A DNA stretch of 64,000 nt from a virus (Duplodnaviria; Caudoviricetes): the IMG/VR virus record IMGVR_UViG_3300043473_000069, positions 36,669-100,668 of that record. One strand, given 5' to 3'. Positions 1 to 36,943 of the stretch are shown in pieces. The notes under the pieces were generated by a model. It was not told where the DNA came from and ran no database searches. It was given only the letters and a program-made list of their open reading frames with translations. Made by a program: the position numbers and the translations under genes. Each line of letters starts with the position of its first letter. Position 1 is the first letter of the stretch.

Positions 1-513
1 GGCATCTACACGGAGGTCACGGCGATGGGCGCCGTGGTCCGTGCGCTGTGGTCGCTGGCTCTGGAGTTGTCACTCGACATCGACGTCTCCACGCCCGAGG
101 GCATGTACATCCCGGCACGCCAGCGCTACCAGCAGGTGATGCAGATGATGCAGTACTGGGAGAACGAGTACGCCACTCGTGCCCAGGCGCTCAACATCGG
201 CCTCGGCCAACTGGAGCAGTTCCAACTGCGTCGGGTGGCGTATCTCACGAACCGCTACGTGCCGGTGTACAAGGCCCGTGAGGTCGATGACCCACGCTGG
301 CCGCAGCGGCTCTACCCGCCCATCCCTGACGGCACGATGAACACCCCCACCCAGGCTGACTGGGACATCGTGGAGGTGGTGGCCGAGTCGGAGCCCGGTG
401 ACCTCGCCAACCGTGCCGTGACCGGTCCCACCGGCCGCTGGTACGGCGGTCAGGACATCGGCTGGACGTCCATCGGGACCCGTGGTGATACGGAGTACCT
501 GGAGGGCCGCTGA
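1..513 (+). CDS. Virion neck/head-tail adaptor-like protein (probably 5' truncated)
   Basis: Reading frame is open to the window edge. It lies upstream of the neck and tail genes and its stop overlaps the next start (TGATG). Confidence 0.45.
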   Translation, partial: GIYTEVTAMGAVVRALWSLALELSLDIDVSTPEGMYIPARQRYQQVMQMMQYWENEYATRAQALNIGLGQLEQFQLRRVAYLTNRYVPVYKAREVDDPRWPQRLYPPIPDGTMNTPTQADWDIVEVVAESEPGDLANRAVTGPTGRWYGGQDIGWTSIGTRGDTEYLEGR

Positions 514-33219: not shown

Positions 33220-34656
33220 TCAGACCCGCTTGCGCCTCGCCACGACGGCCAGCGTCGCTCCAGCAGCGAGCACGAGGGCTGCCGTGGCGGGGATGAGCGG
33301 GTCGTTGCCGGTGGGAGGCAGGCCGGGCTTGGGAGGCGTGCCAGGCCGTGTGGTGGGCGCTCCCGGAGGCGCAGGTGGGTTCTCCGGGTTGGCGCAGGCG
33401 CTCGACTCGGGCGGGTAGGTGATGAACGCCGTGGCCGTGGGGTTCACCGTGTAGGTGAGTCGAATGCCGTCACGGAGATATTCGTCAGAGGGATCACGTA
33501 CCCAAAGACCAGCATCCGTGAGTATCCATCCAGGGACGTCATCGATGCTCCCGTCAGCATTGACGGTGGTGCCAGGATACAGAAGCTCGACATGACCACC
33601 GGGCTGGTAGACGAGGGGCTGGGTGGAGACGACGTTGCCGTTGATGTCACTCATCGTCAACGTACCGGTCTGCCCAGCCAGCGAGGGGAAGCCAGGTGTG
33701 GCGAAGTCGATGACGATGGTCGGGACCTCAGCCCGGCAGACCGTCGCCGCCCCGCTGAACTGGAACGTCGCCGGGAGGGTCGTCGTGGTTCCTGGCAGGG
33801 TGGTTGTAGTGGTGCCAGAGATCGTCGTCGTCGTCACGCCAGTGGATGTCGTGGTAGAGCCAGGCATCGTCGTCGTCGGCCCAGTCGTAGATGTGGGGCT
33901 GGTCGTCGTCGTCGTTGTCGATGGCGTGCTCGTTGTGGTCGTGGTGGTCCCACAGTTTGGTGTCAACTCCACCGTGGCGGTCGCTGTCTGACCCTGGATC
34001 CGGTAGGTCAGCGTCAGCGGTGACTGGAGGCTGGCGGGCCAGGGGATCGTGATGCTCCCCCCGGAGCGGTACACGAGCGGGCCGTACGACGTGCCATCCG
34101 AGAAGTCGAGGATGCCTGACTGGCCGTTGAGGGCGGCGTTGACCGGGAAGTTGATCTGGATGCCGGGCAGGAAGTCCGAGGTGCAGACAGCGAAGACGTT
34201 GATCCCGAACGGCGTGATGACCGGGCCGGTGGTTGTGGTGCCCGCCTGCGTGGTAGTCGTTGTCCCACCACCGCCCGTCGTCGTGGTCGTCGCCAGCGTT
34301 GTCGTCGTCTGCGATGGGGCGGTGGTCGTCGTCTGGTGAGGTGGCTTGGTGGTCGTCGTGGCTGCCGCAGTGGTCGTCGTCTCGTGAGGCGGCTTCATCG
34401 TCGTCGTCGGATGAGGCTTCTCCGTCGTCGTCGGGTGCTCGCAGCCGTGACCACCTCCACCGGATCTGTAGCCATCCGGACACTCGGTCGTCGTTGGGTG
34501 CTCGTACGGCTTCGTCGTTGTCGTTTCGTGCGGCTTGGCCGTGGTCGTTGTGTTACCGCCGTATCCACCGTCGTCGGGAGCATCGTTCCCGGTGGCTGCA
34601 GCCTGGGCGGCACACCCTGCTAGCAGAACAGCGAGTAATACGAGTGCTCGGCGCAT
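33220..34656 (-). CDS. Thr-rich cell-surface protein with an LPXTG anchor
   Basis: N-terminal signal/lipobox LAGC; poly-Thr linkers; two related beta domains; LPPTG, TM helix and RRKR. Confidence 0.8.
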   Translation of the reverse strand: MRRALVLLAVLLAGCAAQAAATGNDAPDDGGYGGNTTTTAKPHETTTTKPYEHPTTTECPDGYRSGGGGHGCEHPTTTEKPHPTTTMKPPHETTTTAAATTTTKPPHQTTTTAPSQTTTTLATTTTTGGGGTTTTTQAGTTTTGPVITPFGINVFAVCTSDFLPGIQINFPVNAALNGQSGILDFSDGTSYGPLVYRSGGSITIPWPASLQSPLTLTYRIQGQTATATVELTPNCGTTTTTTSTPSTTTTTTSPTSTTGPTTTMPGSTTTSTGVTTTTISGTTTTTLPGTTTTLPATFQFSGAATVCRAEVPTIVIDFATPGFPSLAGQTGTLTMSDINGNVVSTQPLVYQPGGHVELLYPGTTVNADGSIDDVPGWILTDAGLWVRDPSDEYLRDGIRLTYTVNPTATAFITYPPESSACANPENPPAPPGAPTTRPGTPPKPGLPPTGNDPLIPATAALVLAAGATLAVVARRKRV

Positions 34657-34736: not shown

Positions 34737-36329
34737 TCAGACCCTACCCGCCGAGAAGTCAGCGATCAGGGCCGGGGCTGCGTTGTCGAAGCCCACGACG
34801 TCCAGCATTCCAGCGTCGCTGGGGTCAGCGATGCTGAACTGGTTGGAGCACATGCCGACCACGACCAGCTTGGCCGGGATGCCGGAGAGCTTGCGGTACT
34901 CCTGCAGCGCCTGCACCGGGTGCGACCGTCCGGCGTACGTCTCCGAGTCCGTGTAGATCACGAAGGTGTCCACGCTGACACCGTTCTTGATCGCCCACAG
35001 CATGGGGAGAGCGCAGTCCGTCCGGTCGAACGGCAGACGGCGGGTCATCTCCACCGTCTGGGCCAGGGACATGCCCTGATGGAGGGCCAGGGGGATGAAG
35101 CCCCCCGAGAACGCCATCACAGCCGTCTGCGGCTCGGTCGCCAGCGTCACCAGCGCCATCGCACTCGACGCCTCACGGGCCGAGAGGAAGGTGCCAGCGA
35201 TCTGGCTGCCGTCCATGGAGCCCGACACGTCGAGCGCCACGAGCGTCCGCTTGTTGGCGGGCTCGACGTTGGCGAACGCCATGCCGAACGTCTTGTCCAG
35301 CGAGGCCAGCACCTTGCCCGAGGGCTGCCAGGTGAGGCTCCCCTTGAAGCCACGCCCGTGGGCGTAGGTCACCGCAGCGGTGAGGACGTTGAGCGGGTGG
35401 ATCCGGCTGCCCTTCACCATGCGCTCCGCCACCAGTCGCTCGGCCACCATGGCCTCGGCCCCCGACATCGGCTTGATGGTGCCGTTGGCGGTGAGCCGAC
35501 CGAGGTTCCGCACGAGTGCGCCCATACCGAGGTTCGGGAGCATGGCGTGCCAGACCTTGGGGTCAGCCAGCATCTCGGACGGCACCACCTCCCAGGGGAG
35601 GCGGTACTGCTCGATCAACTGGACGGCCTCGTCCACCGTGGTGCCGTTGTCGTGGAGCTTGTCCACGGCGCCGAGGAACGTGCCCTCGACTCCCGGCACC
35701 TTGTTGACGGCCCAGCCCAGCGCCTTGGCCTTGGACGAGCCCACGGTGGGGCGGGGCTTGGACAGGCGCAGGAGGTCACGGTGCGACCAGCCCTCACGGC
35801 TCTGGTACTTCGCCACCTGGAGGCACAGGTCATCCAGGTCACGATTCATGTACCAGTCACCGATGGCCGTCCGCAGCGAGCGGCCCCAGCCCCGGAACTG
35901 CTCGACGTAGGAGGCGAACAGGAAGAGGTGGGTACCGGTGCGGCAGACCAGCGGCAGTGCATCGAGCGCCGCCTGACGCACGGTCAGGTCCTCGGCCCCG
36001 GCGCACGCAGCGAGGGCGAACATCGTCGGGTGCTGCTTGGGCGCCCGTCCGTTGACGGAGATGTCCACGATCGTCTGCACGACACGGTCACCGTCCTTGG
36101 CGATGCAGCGCAGGAGCGCAGCGGCGGCGTCCTTGGTGAGCTTCTGCTCCGACGTGTAGTACGTCCCGCCCTCCGTGCCCAGCACGAGGAAGCGGTTGAG
36201 CAGCGTCCAGTCGTCCACCTTGAACGACCAGCCACCGGCAGCGTTGGGCGCCTGGTCGAGGATGCGACCGGGCAGCGGCTCCGTCTGCGGCGTGGCTCGG
36301 GTGGAAACGTTGTGATACGGCGTGGGCAT
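34737..36329 (-). CDS. rsr: Ro60/TROVE-domain RNA-binding protein (Rsr orthologue)
   Basis: NAAGG..RFLVLGTEGGTYY, VCRTGTHLF, KYQSREGWSHRDLLRL, ALVRNL, RIHP, vWA MIDAS DVSGSM, TDCALPM, TDSET and IADP..MLDVVGFD. The ATG at 36329 has GGAGG 7 nt upstream. Confidence 0.97.
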   Translation of the reverse strand: MPTPYHNVSTRATPQTEPLPGRILDQAPNAAGGWSFKVDDWTLLNRFLVLGTEGGTYYTSEQKLTKDAAAALLRCIAKDGDRVVQTIVDISVNGRAPKQHPTMFALAACAGAEDLTVRQAALDALPLVCRTGTHLFLFASYVEQFRGWGRSLRTAIGDWYMNRDLDDLCLQVAKYQSREGWSHRDLLRLSKPRPTVGSSKAKALGWAVNKVPGVEGTFLGAVDKLHDNGTTVDEAVQLIEQYRLPWEVVPSEMLADPKVWHAMLPNLGMGALVRNLGRLTANGTIKPMSGAEAMVAERLVAERMVKGSRIHPLNVLTAAVTYAHGRGFKGSLTWQPSGKVLASLDKTFGMAFANVEPANKRTLVALDVSGSMDGSQIAGTFLSAREASSAMALVTLATEPQTAVMAFSGGFIPLALHQGMSLAQTVEMTRRLPFDRTDCALPMLWAIKNGVSVDTFVIYTDSETYAGRSHPVQALQEYRKLSGIPAKLVVVGMCSNQFSIADPSDAGMLDVVGFDNAAPALIADFSAGRV

Positions 36330-36336
36330 GGTGGGT

Positions 36337-36424
36337 CCTCCGGTCAAGTGAGTGACGGCCCTACAGGCGGGGCTTTGAACCCCGGACCTCTCCCAAAGAG
36401 AACAGGCCGTCTCCGGCCCGAAGG
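36337..36424 (-). ncRNA. Y RNA element 5, overlapping the Ro60 RBS
   Basis: CCUUCGG/CCGGAGG stem and Ro helix; T-like arm CGGGG-UUCAAAG-CCCCG. Confidence 0.82.
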
Positions 36425-36439
36425 TGGGCCAGACTGAGC

Positions 36440-36562
36440 GCTGCGGGCAAGTGAGTGCCAGCCGGTATCCCCAGCCGAAGCTGGGGTCCCGGTTCGGTAG
36501 ATCCGGGTTGGCGGATTCGAAACCGCCTGGTACCTGGTAACCGGATGACTCCGGCCCGCAGC
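36440..36562 (-). ncRNA. Y RNA element 4
   Basis: GCUGCGGG/CCCGCAGC stem and Ro helix; T-like arm GGCGG-UUUCGAAU-CCGCC; two further hairpins, one with a cUUCGg loop. Confidence 0.85.
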
Positions 36563-36574
36563 TATGAGTTGTGT

Positions 36575-36683
36575 GTTACGGACAAGTTGTGCGACCCGAG
36601 TCCCCAACCAACAGGGGTTCGGGAGCCTTGCGGCCCCCGGTAGGAATCGAACCAACGATGAACGGACCACTCCGGCCCGTAAC
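36575..36683 (-). ncRNA. Y RNA element 3, YrlA-type
   Basis: GUUACGG/CCGUAAC stem with GCCGGAG/ACUUG; T loop UUCGAUU; CGGGGGCC-GCAA-GGCUCCCG; D-like arm CCCC-UGUUGGUU-GGGG. Confidence 0.87.
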
Positions 36684-36691
36684 GAGTAGGT

Positions 36692-36818
36692 GCTGAGGTC
36701 AAGTGATGCTGCTCGGGGTTTGCCGCTCTACCAACTGAGCTAACGGGTTGCCCCGTACGGGATTCGAACCCGTGACCTGCCCTTTACAAGAGGTAACCGA
36801 ACTGCTCCGGCCCTCAGC
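36692..36818 (-). ncRNA. Y RNA element 2, YrlA-type permuted tRNA mimic
   Basis: GCUGAGG/CCUCAGC terminal stem and Ro helix; T arm ACGGG-UUCGAAU-CCCGU; GCAA-capped acceptor stem; D arm GCUC-AGUUGGUA-GAGC. Confidence 0.92.
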
Positions 36819-36833
36819 GAGATCTGTTGTCAA

Positions 36834-36908
36834 TGCTCCGGTCAAGTGAGTGCCAGCGGGGTGGATGTGTTTCAGATACAGGTAACCCGCTAGCTCCGGC
36901 CCGGAGCA
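36834..36908 (-). ncRNA. Y RNA-like element 1 (short, no T/D arms)
   Basis: UGCUCCGG-GCCGGAG...CACUCACUUGA-CCGGAGCA: terminal stem plus Ro60-binding helix; starts just after a sigma70-type promoter. Confidence 0.8.
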
Positions 36909-36914
36909 CTGCAC

Positions 36915-36943
36915 AAGATACGGGATCTTTGAGCGAAGCGCAA
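36915..36943 (-). promoter_or_regulatory. Sigma70-type promoter for the Y RNA-Ro60 operon
   Basis: TTGCGC-17 bp-TATCTT on the minus strand, 6 nt before element 1. Confidence 0.65.

What the first reader, a model, noticed from the sequence alone, without database searches (positions are those of the whole stretch)
36327..36424. Ro60 ribosome-binding site is buried in the last Y RNA stem, suggesting built-in autoregulation
Seen: the transcript reads ...CACUUGA-CCGGAGG-ACCCACC-AUG. The GGAGG Shine-Dalgarno, 7 nt before the Ro60 AUG, is the 3' strand of unit 5's closing stem (pairs with CCUUCGG) and lies next to the Ro-binding helix. Inference: Ro60 binding would lock the stem and repress its own translation, and excising unit 5 would strip the RBS. 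Either mechanism would match protein level to Y RNA supply. I know of no description of such a Y-RNA translational operator.
Basis: partly seen in the sequence, partly recalled or inferred. Interest (0 to 1): 0.8.

Follow-up and report, generated by a model that had tools for sequence, protein, structure and literature searches.

The report
Y-RNA leader switch before phage Ro60
In this phage the ribosome-binding site of the Ro60 gene is one strand of the closing stem of the last of five Y RNAs. A conserved upstream 8-base element can undo that stem, so the leader looks like a two-state switch that probably controls Ro60 synthesis, though nothing has been tested at the bench.

Summary
On the minus strand, five Y-RNA-like units abut a clear Ro60 gene (ATG 36329). 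The GGAGG Shine-Dalgarno (SD; 36341-36337), 7 nt before the ATG, is the 3' strand of unit 5's closing stem.

- **Conservation:** the layout holds in all 8 members of one phage clade (54-86% Ro60 identity). It is absent in over 100 more distant loci, where the SD lies after the last Y unit.
- **New here:** all 8 also keep an invariant octamer (36433-36426), 3-6 nt upstream of unit 5. It is complementary to the Ro-binding 5' strand. In the unprocessed transcript this competing hairpin is predicted to abolish the closing stem and partly free the SD.
- **Specificity:** the effect is confined to last units. Both competing structures are conserved, which is typical of a switch.
- **Transcription:** one conserved promoter-like site sits at the head of the array and none lies inside it, so rsr is probably read from the Y-RNA transcript.
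- **Open question:** whether Ro60 itself throws the switch is inference.
- **Independent support:** in 26 of 235 other rsr loci a strand-swapped Ro-helix hairpin sits 9-29 nt (mostly 9-17) before the ATG. This scan has already reported such leader hairpins on other DNA; I found no paper describing them.
- **TTG 36347** is rejected as the start.

The parts
36915..36943 (-). Promoter-like site at the head of the array: -35 at 36943-36938, a 17-nt spacer, -10 at 36920-36915. Unit 1 begins 6-7 nt downstream.
   Evidence: Read. The same TTGNNN-17-TANNNT arrangement lies 5-7 nt before the first unit in all 7 clade loci examined. It is the only such match between that point and the rsr ATG. The stricter consensus scan found none.
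36835..36908 (-). Y-RNA-like unit 1
   Evidence: Rfam RF01656 scores 43 bits. Model R1 scores 66.5 bits. Fold.
36692..36819 (-). Y-RNA-like unit 2 (tRNA-like body)
   Evidence: YrlA partial match of 40 bits and RF01656 at 24 bits. ARAGORN calls tRNA-Thr. Fold.
36575..36684 (-). Y-RNA-like unit 3
   Evidence: R1 19.4 bits.
36440..36563 (-). Y-RNA-like unit 4
   Evidence: RF01656 scores 41 bits. R1 scores 40 bits. Fold z-score is -5.8.
36426..36433 (-). Conserved octamer ('anti-Y' strand), complementary to the Ro-motif 5' strand of unit 5
   Evidence: Seven of its eight bases are invariant in all 8 clade members and the eighth is C or U, while the flanking spacer varies.
36412..36433 (-). Alternative 8-bp hairpin: octamer, then a 6-nt loop holding most of the closing-stem 5' strand, then the Ro-motif 5' strand at 36419-36412
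   Evidence: It is the MFE and RNAalifold consensus whenever the 5' flank is present. P = 0.95 in the full 639-nt transcript fold.
36337..36424 (-). Y-RNA-like unit 5, which is also the leader of the Ro60 mRNA
   Evidence: R1 scores 27.5 bits. RF01656 scores 25 bits, below its cut-off. The closing stem and upper stem are conserved and covary.
36418..36424 (-). Closing-stem 5' strand of unit 5
36337..36343 (-). Closing-stem 3' strand of unit 5. Its last five bases (36341-36337) are the GGAGG Shine-Dalgarno.
36342..36354 (-). Ro-binding helix 3'-strand motif of unit 5. It contains the in-frame TTG at 36347-36345.
   Evidence: It is the same motif as in units 1 and 4.
34737..36329 (-). Ro60 (Rsr) gene, 530 aa, starting at ATG 36329
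   Evidence: Pfam TROVE and vWA_Ro60, PHROG 850, PDB Ro60 and Rsr matches, start chosen by homologue alignment.

Best explanation
Unit 5 is a Y-RNA-derived, two-state leader of the phage Ro60 mRNA.

**Transcription.** The array and rsr are read as one transcript from a promoter just before unit 1.

**State A (open).** State A forms first during transcription. The conserved octamer at 36433-36426 pairs with the Ro-motif 5' strand at 36419-36412. Most of the closing-stem 5' strand then sits in the hairpin loop, its last two bases in the stem. Unit 5 cannot close, the Ro-binding helix cannot form, and the SD is available for ribosomes.

**State B (closed).** Unit 5 adopts the ordinary Y-RNA fold. 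Its closing stem pairs every base of the SD, directly beside the Ro-binding helix.

**Proposed trigger.** Ro60 that is not taken up by units 1-4 binds and stabilises state B. This shuts off its own translation. It also commits that RNA to becoming a fifth Y RNA, because trimming at the unit's 3' end removes the SD from the ORF. The result would be negative feedback that ties the Ro60 level to the Y-RNA supply.

**Shown versus inferred.**
- Shown: the sequence geometry, conservation of both structures in 8 relatives, and the predicted energetics.
- Inferred: co-transcription, Ro60 binding to unit 5, repression, and the order of events.
For: 1. **SD in the stem.** The SD is the closing-stem 3' strand, 5-10 nt before the start, in 8 of 8 clade members (WIN, L003, L005, L163, L004, L006, L164, L323).
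2. **The Y fold is selected.** The closing stem pairs in 100% of cells, with 3 variable positions all keeping pairing. L164 changes the SD strand itself and still pairs. In the upper stem, 8 of 9 pairs show changes on both sides. 0 of 500 shuffles reach the observed values.
3. **The competing hairpin is conserved.** All 8 members carry the octamer: seven of its eight bases are invariant (the eighth is C or U), in an otherwise variable spacer. RNAalifold picks this hairpin rather than the closing stem.
4. **The effect is specific to last units.** P(closing stem) falls from 0.90-0.99 alone to 0.00-0.05 with 20-nt flanks for 5 of 5 last units tested. None of 12 non-last clade units falls below 0.1 (median 1.0). 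Only 4-5% of 149 units from other loci do.
5. **Energetics.** State A is favoured by 3.5-7.4 kcal/mol. That is less than the roughly 11-12 kcal/mol implied if Ro60 binds with nanomolar affinity (assumed from general knowledge, not measured here). P(SD unpaired) is 0.13-0.44 in state A and 0.00 in state B.
6. **Ro-helix motifs.** Those of unit 5 match units 1 and 4, and the protein is a close Ro60 orthologue.
7. **Single promoter.** One conserved promoter-like site lies before unit 1 and none inside the array, in all 7 loci. All 202 model hits lie on the rsr strand. In M. smegmatis the Y RNAs upstream of rsr are processed from one precursor (PMC4201824).
8. **Independent architecture.** A strand-swapped Ro-helix hairpin lies 9-29 nt (mostly 9-17) before the ATG in 26 of 235 other loci. 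Of 32 motif occurrences near the ATG, 26 have a complementary arm, against 878 of 6139 elsewhere (Fisher p = 6e-17).
Against: - There are no binding, structure-probing or expression data. Every structural statement rests on nearest-neighbour predictions for naked RNA.
- The octamer and its partner are invariant, so there is no covariation for the alternative hairpin. Its support is conservation plus specificity only.
- The eight sequences are related, so they are not eight independent events.
- In state A the SD is only partly open (0.13-0.44).
- Unit 5 scores low as a Y RNA: 27.5 bits with my model, below the cut-off in Rfam, and it lacks the usual motif after the Ro helix.
- More distant rsr loci do without SD-in-stem, so the layout is not required for Ro60 expression.
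- A processing-driven switch explains the same features without Ro60 feedback.
Confidence: 0.45

Rival explanations
1. Processing-driven switch without Ro60 feedback. The octamer keeps the SD open only while the precursor is intact. Endonucleolytic cleavage between units 4 and 5 removes the octamer. Unit 5 then snaps into the Y fold, the SD closes, and 3' trimming releases a fifth Y RNA. Translation per transcript is then set by processing kinetics. This still couples Ro60 output to Y-RNA production, but Ro60 does not sense itself.
For: The same structural facts apply. Y RNAs upstream of rsr are processed from one precursor in M. smegmatis. The octamer lies in the spacer that processing would remove. 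Cutting unit 5 at its 3' end must strip the SD.
Against: This reading does not explain why the competing strand targets the Ro-binding motif in particular rather than the SD's partner alone. It also does not explain why unrelated lineages place stand-alone Ro-helix mimics at the rsr SD. No processing sites are known.
Confidence: 0.25
2. No regulation. Genome compaction pushed the SD into the last Y unit's stem. The octamer evolved only as a constitutive anti-sequestor, or as a 5' stabilising hairpin, so that rsr can be translated at all. Unit 5 is then a fossil Y RNA that serves only as a leader.
For: Other lineages have the SD outside the last unit. Unit 5 is the weakest-scoring unit. State A is predicted to dominate.
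Against: The Y fold of the last unit is itself under selection. Its upper stem covaries, the closing stem pairs in 100% of cells, and the Ro motifs are intact in all 8. A pure leader would not need these features. In L005 the last unit is a high-scoring Y unit (56 bits).
Confidence: 0.2
3. The premise is wrong. Translation starts at TTG 36347, or rsr has its own promoter, so the GGAGG is not the working ribosome-binding site.
For: TTG 36347 is in frame.
Against: Homologue N-termini align to ATG 36329. The in-frame upstream TTGs sit at different offsets in relatives (-18, -36, -42, -57), and each is the UUG of the Ro motif. No SD precedes TTG 36347. GGAGG at 7-nt spacing is canonical. No internal promoter-like site exists in 7 of 7 loci.
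Confidence: 0.03

Closest known systems
Bacterial and phage Y RNAs encoded next to Ro60/Rsr (Chen et al. 2014, PMC4201824): D. radiodurans Yrn1/2, M. smegmatis YrlA/YrlB, mycobacteriophage ET08
   Same: Y-like RNAs lie on the same strand just upstream of rsr. They have a closing stem plus a conserved Ro-binding helix, and some have tRNA-like bodies. In M. smegmatis they are processed from one precursor upstream of rsr.
   Different: That paper mentions no overlap of a Y RNA with the rsr ribosome-binding site and no competing hairpin. Here both strands of the Ro helix are metazoan-like, since the units match the nematode sbRNA model RF01656. The M. abscessus prophage I checked has a different Y subtype, with its SD about 15 nt after the last unit.
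Autogenous translational operators that mimic the protein's main RNA ligand: E. coli thrS operator, ribosomal-protein leaders such as L1, S8, S15, L20 (own knowledge)
   Same: The proposed logic is the same. The protein's binding site near its own SD copies its normal RNA partner, and excess protein blocks initiation.
   Different: Here the operator is not a partial mimic but an entire member of the ligand family, and it could itself mature into that ligand. Binding and repression are untested.
Phage MS2/Q-beta coat protein binding to the replicase operator hairpin (own knowledge)
   Same: A phage protein binds a hairpin that contains the translation initiation signals of a gene.
   Different: In MS2 the coat protein represses a different gene and the hairpin is constitutive. 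Here the target is the protein's own gene, and the SD stem competes with a second conserved hairpin.
Protein-dependent two-state leaders such as PyrR and TRAP (own knowledge)
   Same: Two mutually exclusive conserved structures exist, and the protein is proposed to stabilise one of them.
   Different: Those systems act mostly on transcription termination through anti-antiterminators. Here the output would be SD access, and there is no terminator. The terminator-like site inside unit 5 is not conserved (compared with L003).
Strand-swapped ('permuted') or miniature Ro-helix hairpins in rsr leaders, reported earlier by this scan on other DNA (e1-5884182, e1-5801706, e1-5659081, e1-2694084) and seen again here in 26 loci
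   Same: A Ro-binding helix is placed within a few bases of the rsr SD, and Ro60 autoregulation is proposed.
   Different: Those are small stand-alone hairpins with the SD on the 'body' side of the helix. Here the helix belongs to a complete Y unit, the SD is on the terminal side as a stem strand, and a dedicated competing hairpin exists.

Membership tests
Ro60/Rsr protein | TROVE domain followed by a vWA/MIDAS domain, with full-length similarity to solved Ro60 structures | tested here: met
   PF05731 at 3e-37 and PF25045 at 1e-64. E = 1.8e-120 to 9nen, 1.6e-119 to 1yvp and 8e-111 to 2nvo, over almost the whole length.
Y RNA (unit 5) | 5' and 3' ends pair to form a closing stem | tested here: met
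   A 7-bp stem in the isolated unit. It pairs in 100% of cells across 8 relatives. It is predicted not to form while the upstream octamer is attached.
Y RNA (unit 5) | Conserved Ro-binding helix with a bulged C, formed by both strand motifs | tested here: met
   Both motifs match units 1 and 4. RF01656 aligns them but scores 25.3 bits against a cut-off of 38. Model R1 gives 27.5 bits, E = 0.003.
Y RNA (unit 5) | Encoded next to, and on the same strand as, a Ro60 gene | tested here: met
   It abuts rsr. All 202 model hits in 160 loci are on the rsr strand.
Y RNA (unit 5) | Exists as a discrete RNA bound by Ro60 | not testable with these tools
   Needs RNA end mapping and Ro60 immunoprecipitation.
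YrlA family (Rfam RF02553) | Score at or above the family's gathering cut-off (69 bits) | tested here: not met
   There is no YrlA match for unit 5. Unit 2 reaches 40 bits and unit 3 reaches 28 bits. Unit 5 is therefore not filed as YrlA.
Autogenous translational operator | The regulator's RNA-binding site overlaps or abuts the SD or start of its own gene and mimics its normal ligand | tested here: met
   The SD begins directly after the Ro-helix 3' strand and is part of the same continuous stem.
Autogenous translational operator | Binding of the protein lowers translation of its own mRNA | not testable with these tools
   Needs toeprinting and reporter assays.
Two-state (riboswitch-like) leader | Two mutually exclusive structures, both conserved, one of which sequesters the SD | tested here: met
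   The closing stem is conserved with variation that keeps pairing. The alternative hairpin is present in 8 of 8, essentially unchanged, and is chosen by RNAalifold. The two share the bases at 36419-36418, and the closing-stem 5' strand lies mostly in the hairpin loop. P(SD unpaired) is 0.00 against 0.13-0.44.
Two-state (riboswitch-like) leader | A ligand or event shifts the equilibrium | not testable with these tools
   Ro60 binding or 5' processing are the candidates. Neither could be tested.

The most novel reading that the evidence does not exclude
One RNA segment has two exclusive fates, set by Ro60 itself. It is either the translated leader of the Ro60 mRNA or a mature Ro60-bound Y RNA. 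A dedicated anti-Y hairpin holds it in the leader state until free Ro60 captures the Y fold. Together with the strand-swapped Ro-helix hairpins at rsr ribosome-binding sites in unrelated bacteria and phages, this would mean that Ro60 synthesis is widely autoregulated by mimicry of its Y-RNA ligand. It would be an undescribed regulatory layer for a protein studied since the 1980s.
Probability: 0.35. Interest if true: 0.8.

Novelty: new variant of a known kind. Interest (0 to 1): 0.62.

Why it matters
How cells or phages set the amount of Ro60 relative to its Y RNAs is not known for any bacterium. The papers I could search describe no translational control of rsr.

This leader gives a concrete, mutable model of about 110 nt with three short elements: the octamer, the closing-stem 5' strand and the SD strand. 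Each has a clear predicted phenotype when mutated, so Ro60 feedback becomes directly testable.

It would also be an unusual case of a non-coding RNA gene and an mRNA leader sharing the same bases, with a built-in choice between the two fates.

Tried and rejected
- **TTG 36347 as start:** rejected, because it is part of the invariant Ro motif and homologues align to ATG 36329.
- **Internal promoter for rsr:** none found. The strict scan gave 0. The looser TTGNNN-16..18-TANNNT search gave only the array-head site in 7 of 7 loci.
- **Terminator-like hairpin inside unit 5** (36420-36403): the U-rich tail and stem are not kept in L003. I treat it as chance.
- **Rfam:** no family covers the octamer hairpin or the strand-swapped leader hairpins.
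- **GGAGG usage as SD across the window**: uninformative, because chance ORFs are too frequent in this GC-rich DNA.
After filtering for a Ro60 gene it returned the four known clade loci plus one new member, L323.
- **Whole-transcript fold of 639 nt**: agrees on the alternative hairpin, but it also predicts long-range pairings that I do not trust (unit 3 opened, SD paired to unit 3).
- **Model R1 on the M. abscessus prophage**: no hits, because that phage has a different Y subtype. Its SD lies outside the last unit by eye.
- **The look-up of encoding contigs:** The loci of closer homologues P0003-P0020 (57-72% identity) could not be fetched.
- **Paper searches** for Ro60 or Rsr autoregulation or SD overlap: nothing relevant found. 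One search failed on syntax.

Full report
**What is there.** The window is part of a 100.7-kb IMG/VR virus record. Its neighbours point to an actinobacterial phage: an Rpf-type transglycosylase with a peptidoglycan-binding domain, and an SNF2 helicase.

On the minus strand, five tandem Y-RNA-like units (36908-36337) run straight into a 530-aa ORF. That ORF is an unmistakable Ro60:
- It has TROVE and Ro60 vWA domains.
- It matches human and Xenopus Ro60 at E = 1e-120 and D. radiodurans Rsr at 8e-111.

Each unit folded alone gives a 7-bp closing stem followed by the Ro-binding helix motifs. Units 1 and 4 pass the Rfam cut-off of the nematode Y-RNA homologue family RF01656. Y RNAs beside Ro60 genes in bacteria and phages are known (PMC4201824).

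**The observation.** It is correct at the stated coordinates.
- The closing-stem 3' strand of unit 5 is at 36343-36337 and ends in GGAGG.
- A 7-nt A/C-rich spacer follows, then ATG 36329.
- The partner strand is at 36424-36418.
- The SD starts directly after the Ro-helix 3' motif (36354-36342).

Homologue N-termini align to this ATG. The in-frame TTG at 36347 is simply the UUG of the invariant Ro motif, and it sits at inconsistent offsets in relatives.

**Is it conserved?** I collected 235 usable rsr loci from viral, genome and metagenome collections. I then built a covariance model of the Y-unit ends (R1).
- In the first 160 loci (viral and genome collections), all 202 hits lie on the rsr strand, and most are upstream of it.
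- The gap between the end of the last unit's stem and the start codon is 5-8 nt in only five loci: this window, L003, L004, L005 and L006.
- Every other locus has a gap of at least 13 nt, with the SD outside the unit.
- Three further members turned up: L163 and L164 and L323.

So 8 of 8 members of one clade (54-86% Ro60 identity) share the layout. The next relatives (L165, L166) and a published M. abscessus prophage do not.

Across the eight, the closing stem pairs in every cell and three positions vary while keeping pairing. L164 changes the SD strand itself and still pairs. The upper stem has changes on both sides at 8 of 9 pairs.

All eight loci carry an octamer, 3-6 nt upstream of the last unit, in an otherwise variable spacer. 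Seven of its bases are invariant; the eighth is C or U. Here it is at 36433-36426.

The octamer is the complement of the Ro-motif 5' strand (36419-36412). The resulting 8-bp hairpin holds most of the closing-stem 5' strand in its loop, so it excludes both the closing stem and the Ro-binding helix.

| Measure | Result |
|---|---|
| P(closing stem), last unit alone | 0.90-0.99 |
| P(closing stem), last unit with 20-nt flanks (5 of 5 tested) | 0.00-0.05 |
| Non-last clade units falling below 0.1 | 0 of 12 (median 1.0) |
| Units from other loci falling below 0.1 | 4-5% of 149 |
| Ensemble free-energy advantage of the hairpin state | 3.5-7.4 kcal/mol |
| P(SD unpaired), hairpin state | 0.13-0.44 |
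| P(SD unpaired), Y fold | 0.00 |

RNAalifold on the eight leaders also returns the hairpin rather than the closing stem. The full 639-nt transcript fold does the same.

Two mutually exclusive structures, both conserved, with one burying the SD, are the usual signature of a regulatory switch.

**Transcription.** A TTGNNN-17-TANNNT site lies 5-7 nt before the first unit in all seven clade loci examined. It is the only such site up to the rsr ATG. Only 5-10 nt separate the last unit from the start codon, so rsr is most likely translated from the Y-array transcript. This is inference.

**Mechanism.**
- *Best reading (0.45).* The hairpin forms first during transcription and keeps the SD open. Ro60 in excess over units 1-4 binds and stabilises the Y fold of unit 5. 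This closes the SD and commits the RNA to Y-RNA maturation, which removes the SD from the ORF.
- *Main rival (0.25).* Cleavage between units 4 and 5, rather than Ro60, removes the octamer and flips the switch.
- *Second rival (0.20).* The octamer is only a constitutive anti-sequestor. This fits poorly with the clear selection on the Y fold of the last unit.

No tool here can show binding or repression.

**Independent comparative support.** In 26 of 235 other rsr loci a small hairpin sits 9-29 nt (mostly 9-17) before the ATG. These loci include Armatimonadota, Myxococcota, Chloroflexota and other phage contigs. The hairpin carries the Ro-helix 3'-strand motif first and the 5'-strand motif second.
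- Of 32 occurrences of the 5'-strand motif in that position, 26 have the complementary arm, against 878 of 6139 elsewhere (Fisher p = 6e-17).
- The stems covary.
- In several loci the motif itself supplies the SD.
- Rfam has no family for it.

This scan has already reported such leader hairpins on other DNA. My result agrees with those reports and was obtained independently here.

The present window adds a different architecture: a whole Y unit as operator, plus a dedicated competing hairpin.

**Novelty.** Autogenous control by ligand mimicry and two-state leaders are both known kinds. I found no paper describing a Y-RNA-based version for Ro60.

**Limits.**
- The structures are predictions only.
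- The eight sequences are related.
- The alternative hairpin is invariant, so it shows no covariation.

Noticed in passing
L087, L103, L106, L112, L125, L128, L142, L146, L147, L153, L154, L187, L190, L213 and others; positions listed: A strand-swapped Ro-helix hairpin lies immediately before the rsr SD in 26 of 235 loci. The stems covary. In L142, L153, L216 and L218 the Ro-motif 5' strand itself supplies the GGAGG. No Rfam family covers it. The scan has reported it earlier on other DNA.
   Followed up: partly
L106, L112, L125, L128, L142, L147, L153: In these bacterial loci rsr sits inside long same-strand arrays of tRNA genes. In L147 and L106 the leader hairpin begins 1-8 nt after a tRNA 3' end. 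This raises the possibility of a tRNA-plus-Ro-hairpin RNA.
   Followed up: no
window 36915-36943 (minus strand) and the equivalent sites in L003, L004, L005, L006, L163, L164: A conserved promoter-like site places the likely transcription start at or within a few bases of the first nucleotide of Y unit 1. Unit 1 may therefore need no 5' processing.
   Followed up: partly
L099, L110, L131, L133, L160: Verrucomicrobial loci share a conserved GC-rich hairpin between the last Y unit and the rsr SD. It is different from both architectures described here.
   Followed up: no
L108, L116, L124, L145, L194: Longimicrobiaceae and Gemmatimonadota leaders have a hairpin whose 3' arm overlaps the end of the SD, followed by tandem ATG ATG.
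   Followed up: no
L060, L061: After the last Y unit, a short hairpin can pair a pyrimidine run with the SD. It resembles the closing stem of the window's unit 5 without the Y body.
   Followed up: no
window 33220-34656 (minus strand): A 478-aa ORF lies 80 nt downstream of rsr on the same strand. It has no Pfam or PHROG match.
   Followed up: partly
L362 (Mycobacterium phage prophiGD43A-5), 600-1360: This published prophage has five or more Y-like units of a different subtype before its Ro gene. Only one is annotated, as tRNA-Thr. Model R1 finds none of them.
   Followed up: partly
window 36403-36420 (minus strand): A terminator-like hairpin with a U-rich tail lies inside unit 5. It competes with the unit's upper stem and is not conserved in L003.
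   Followed up: partly
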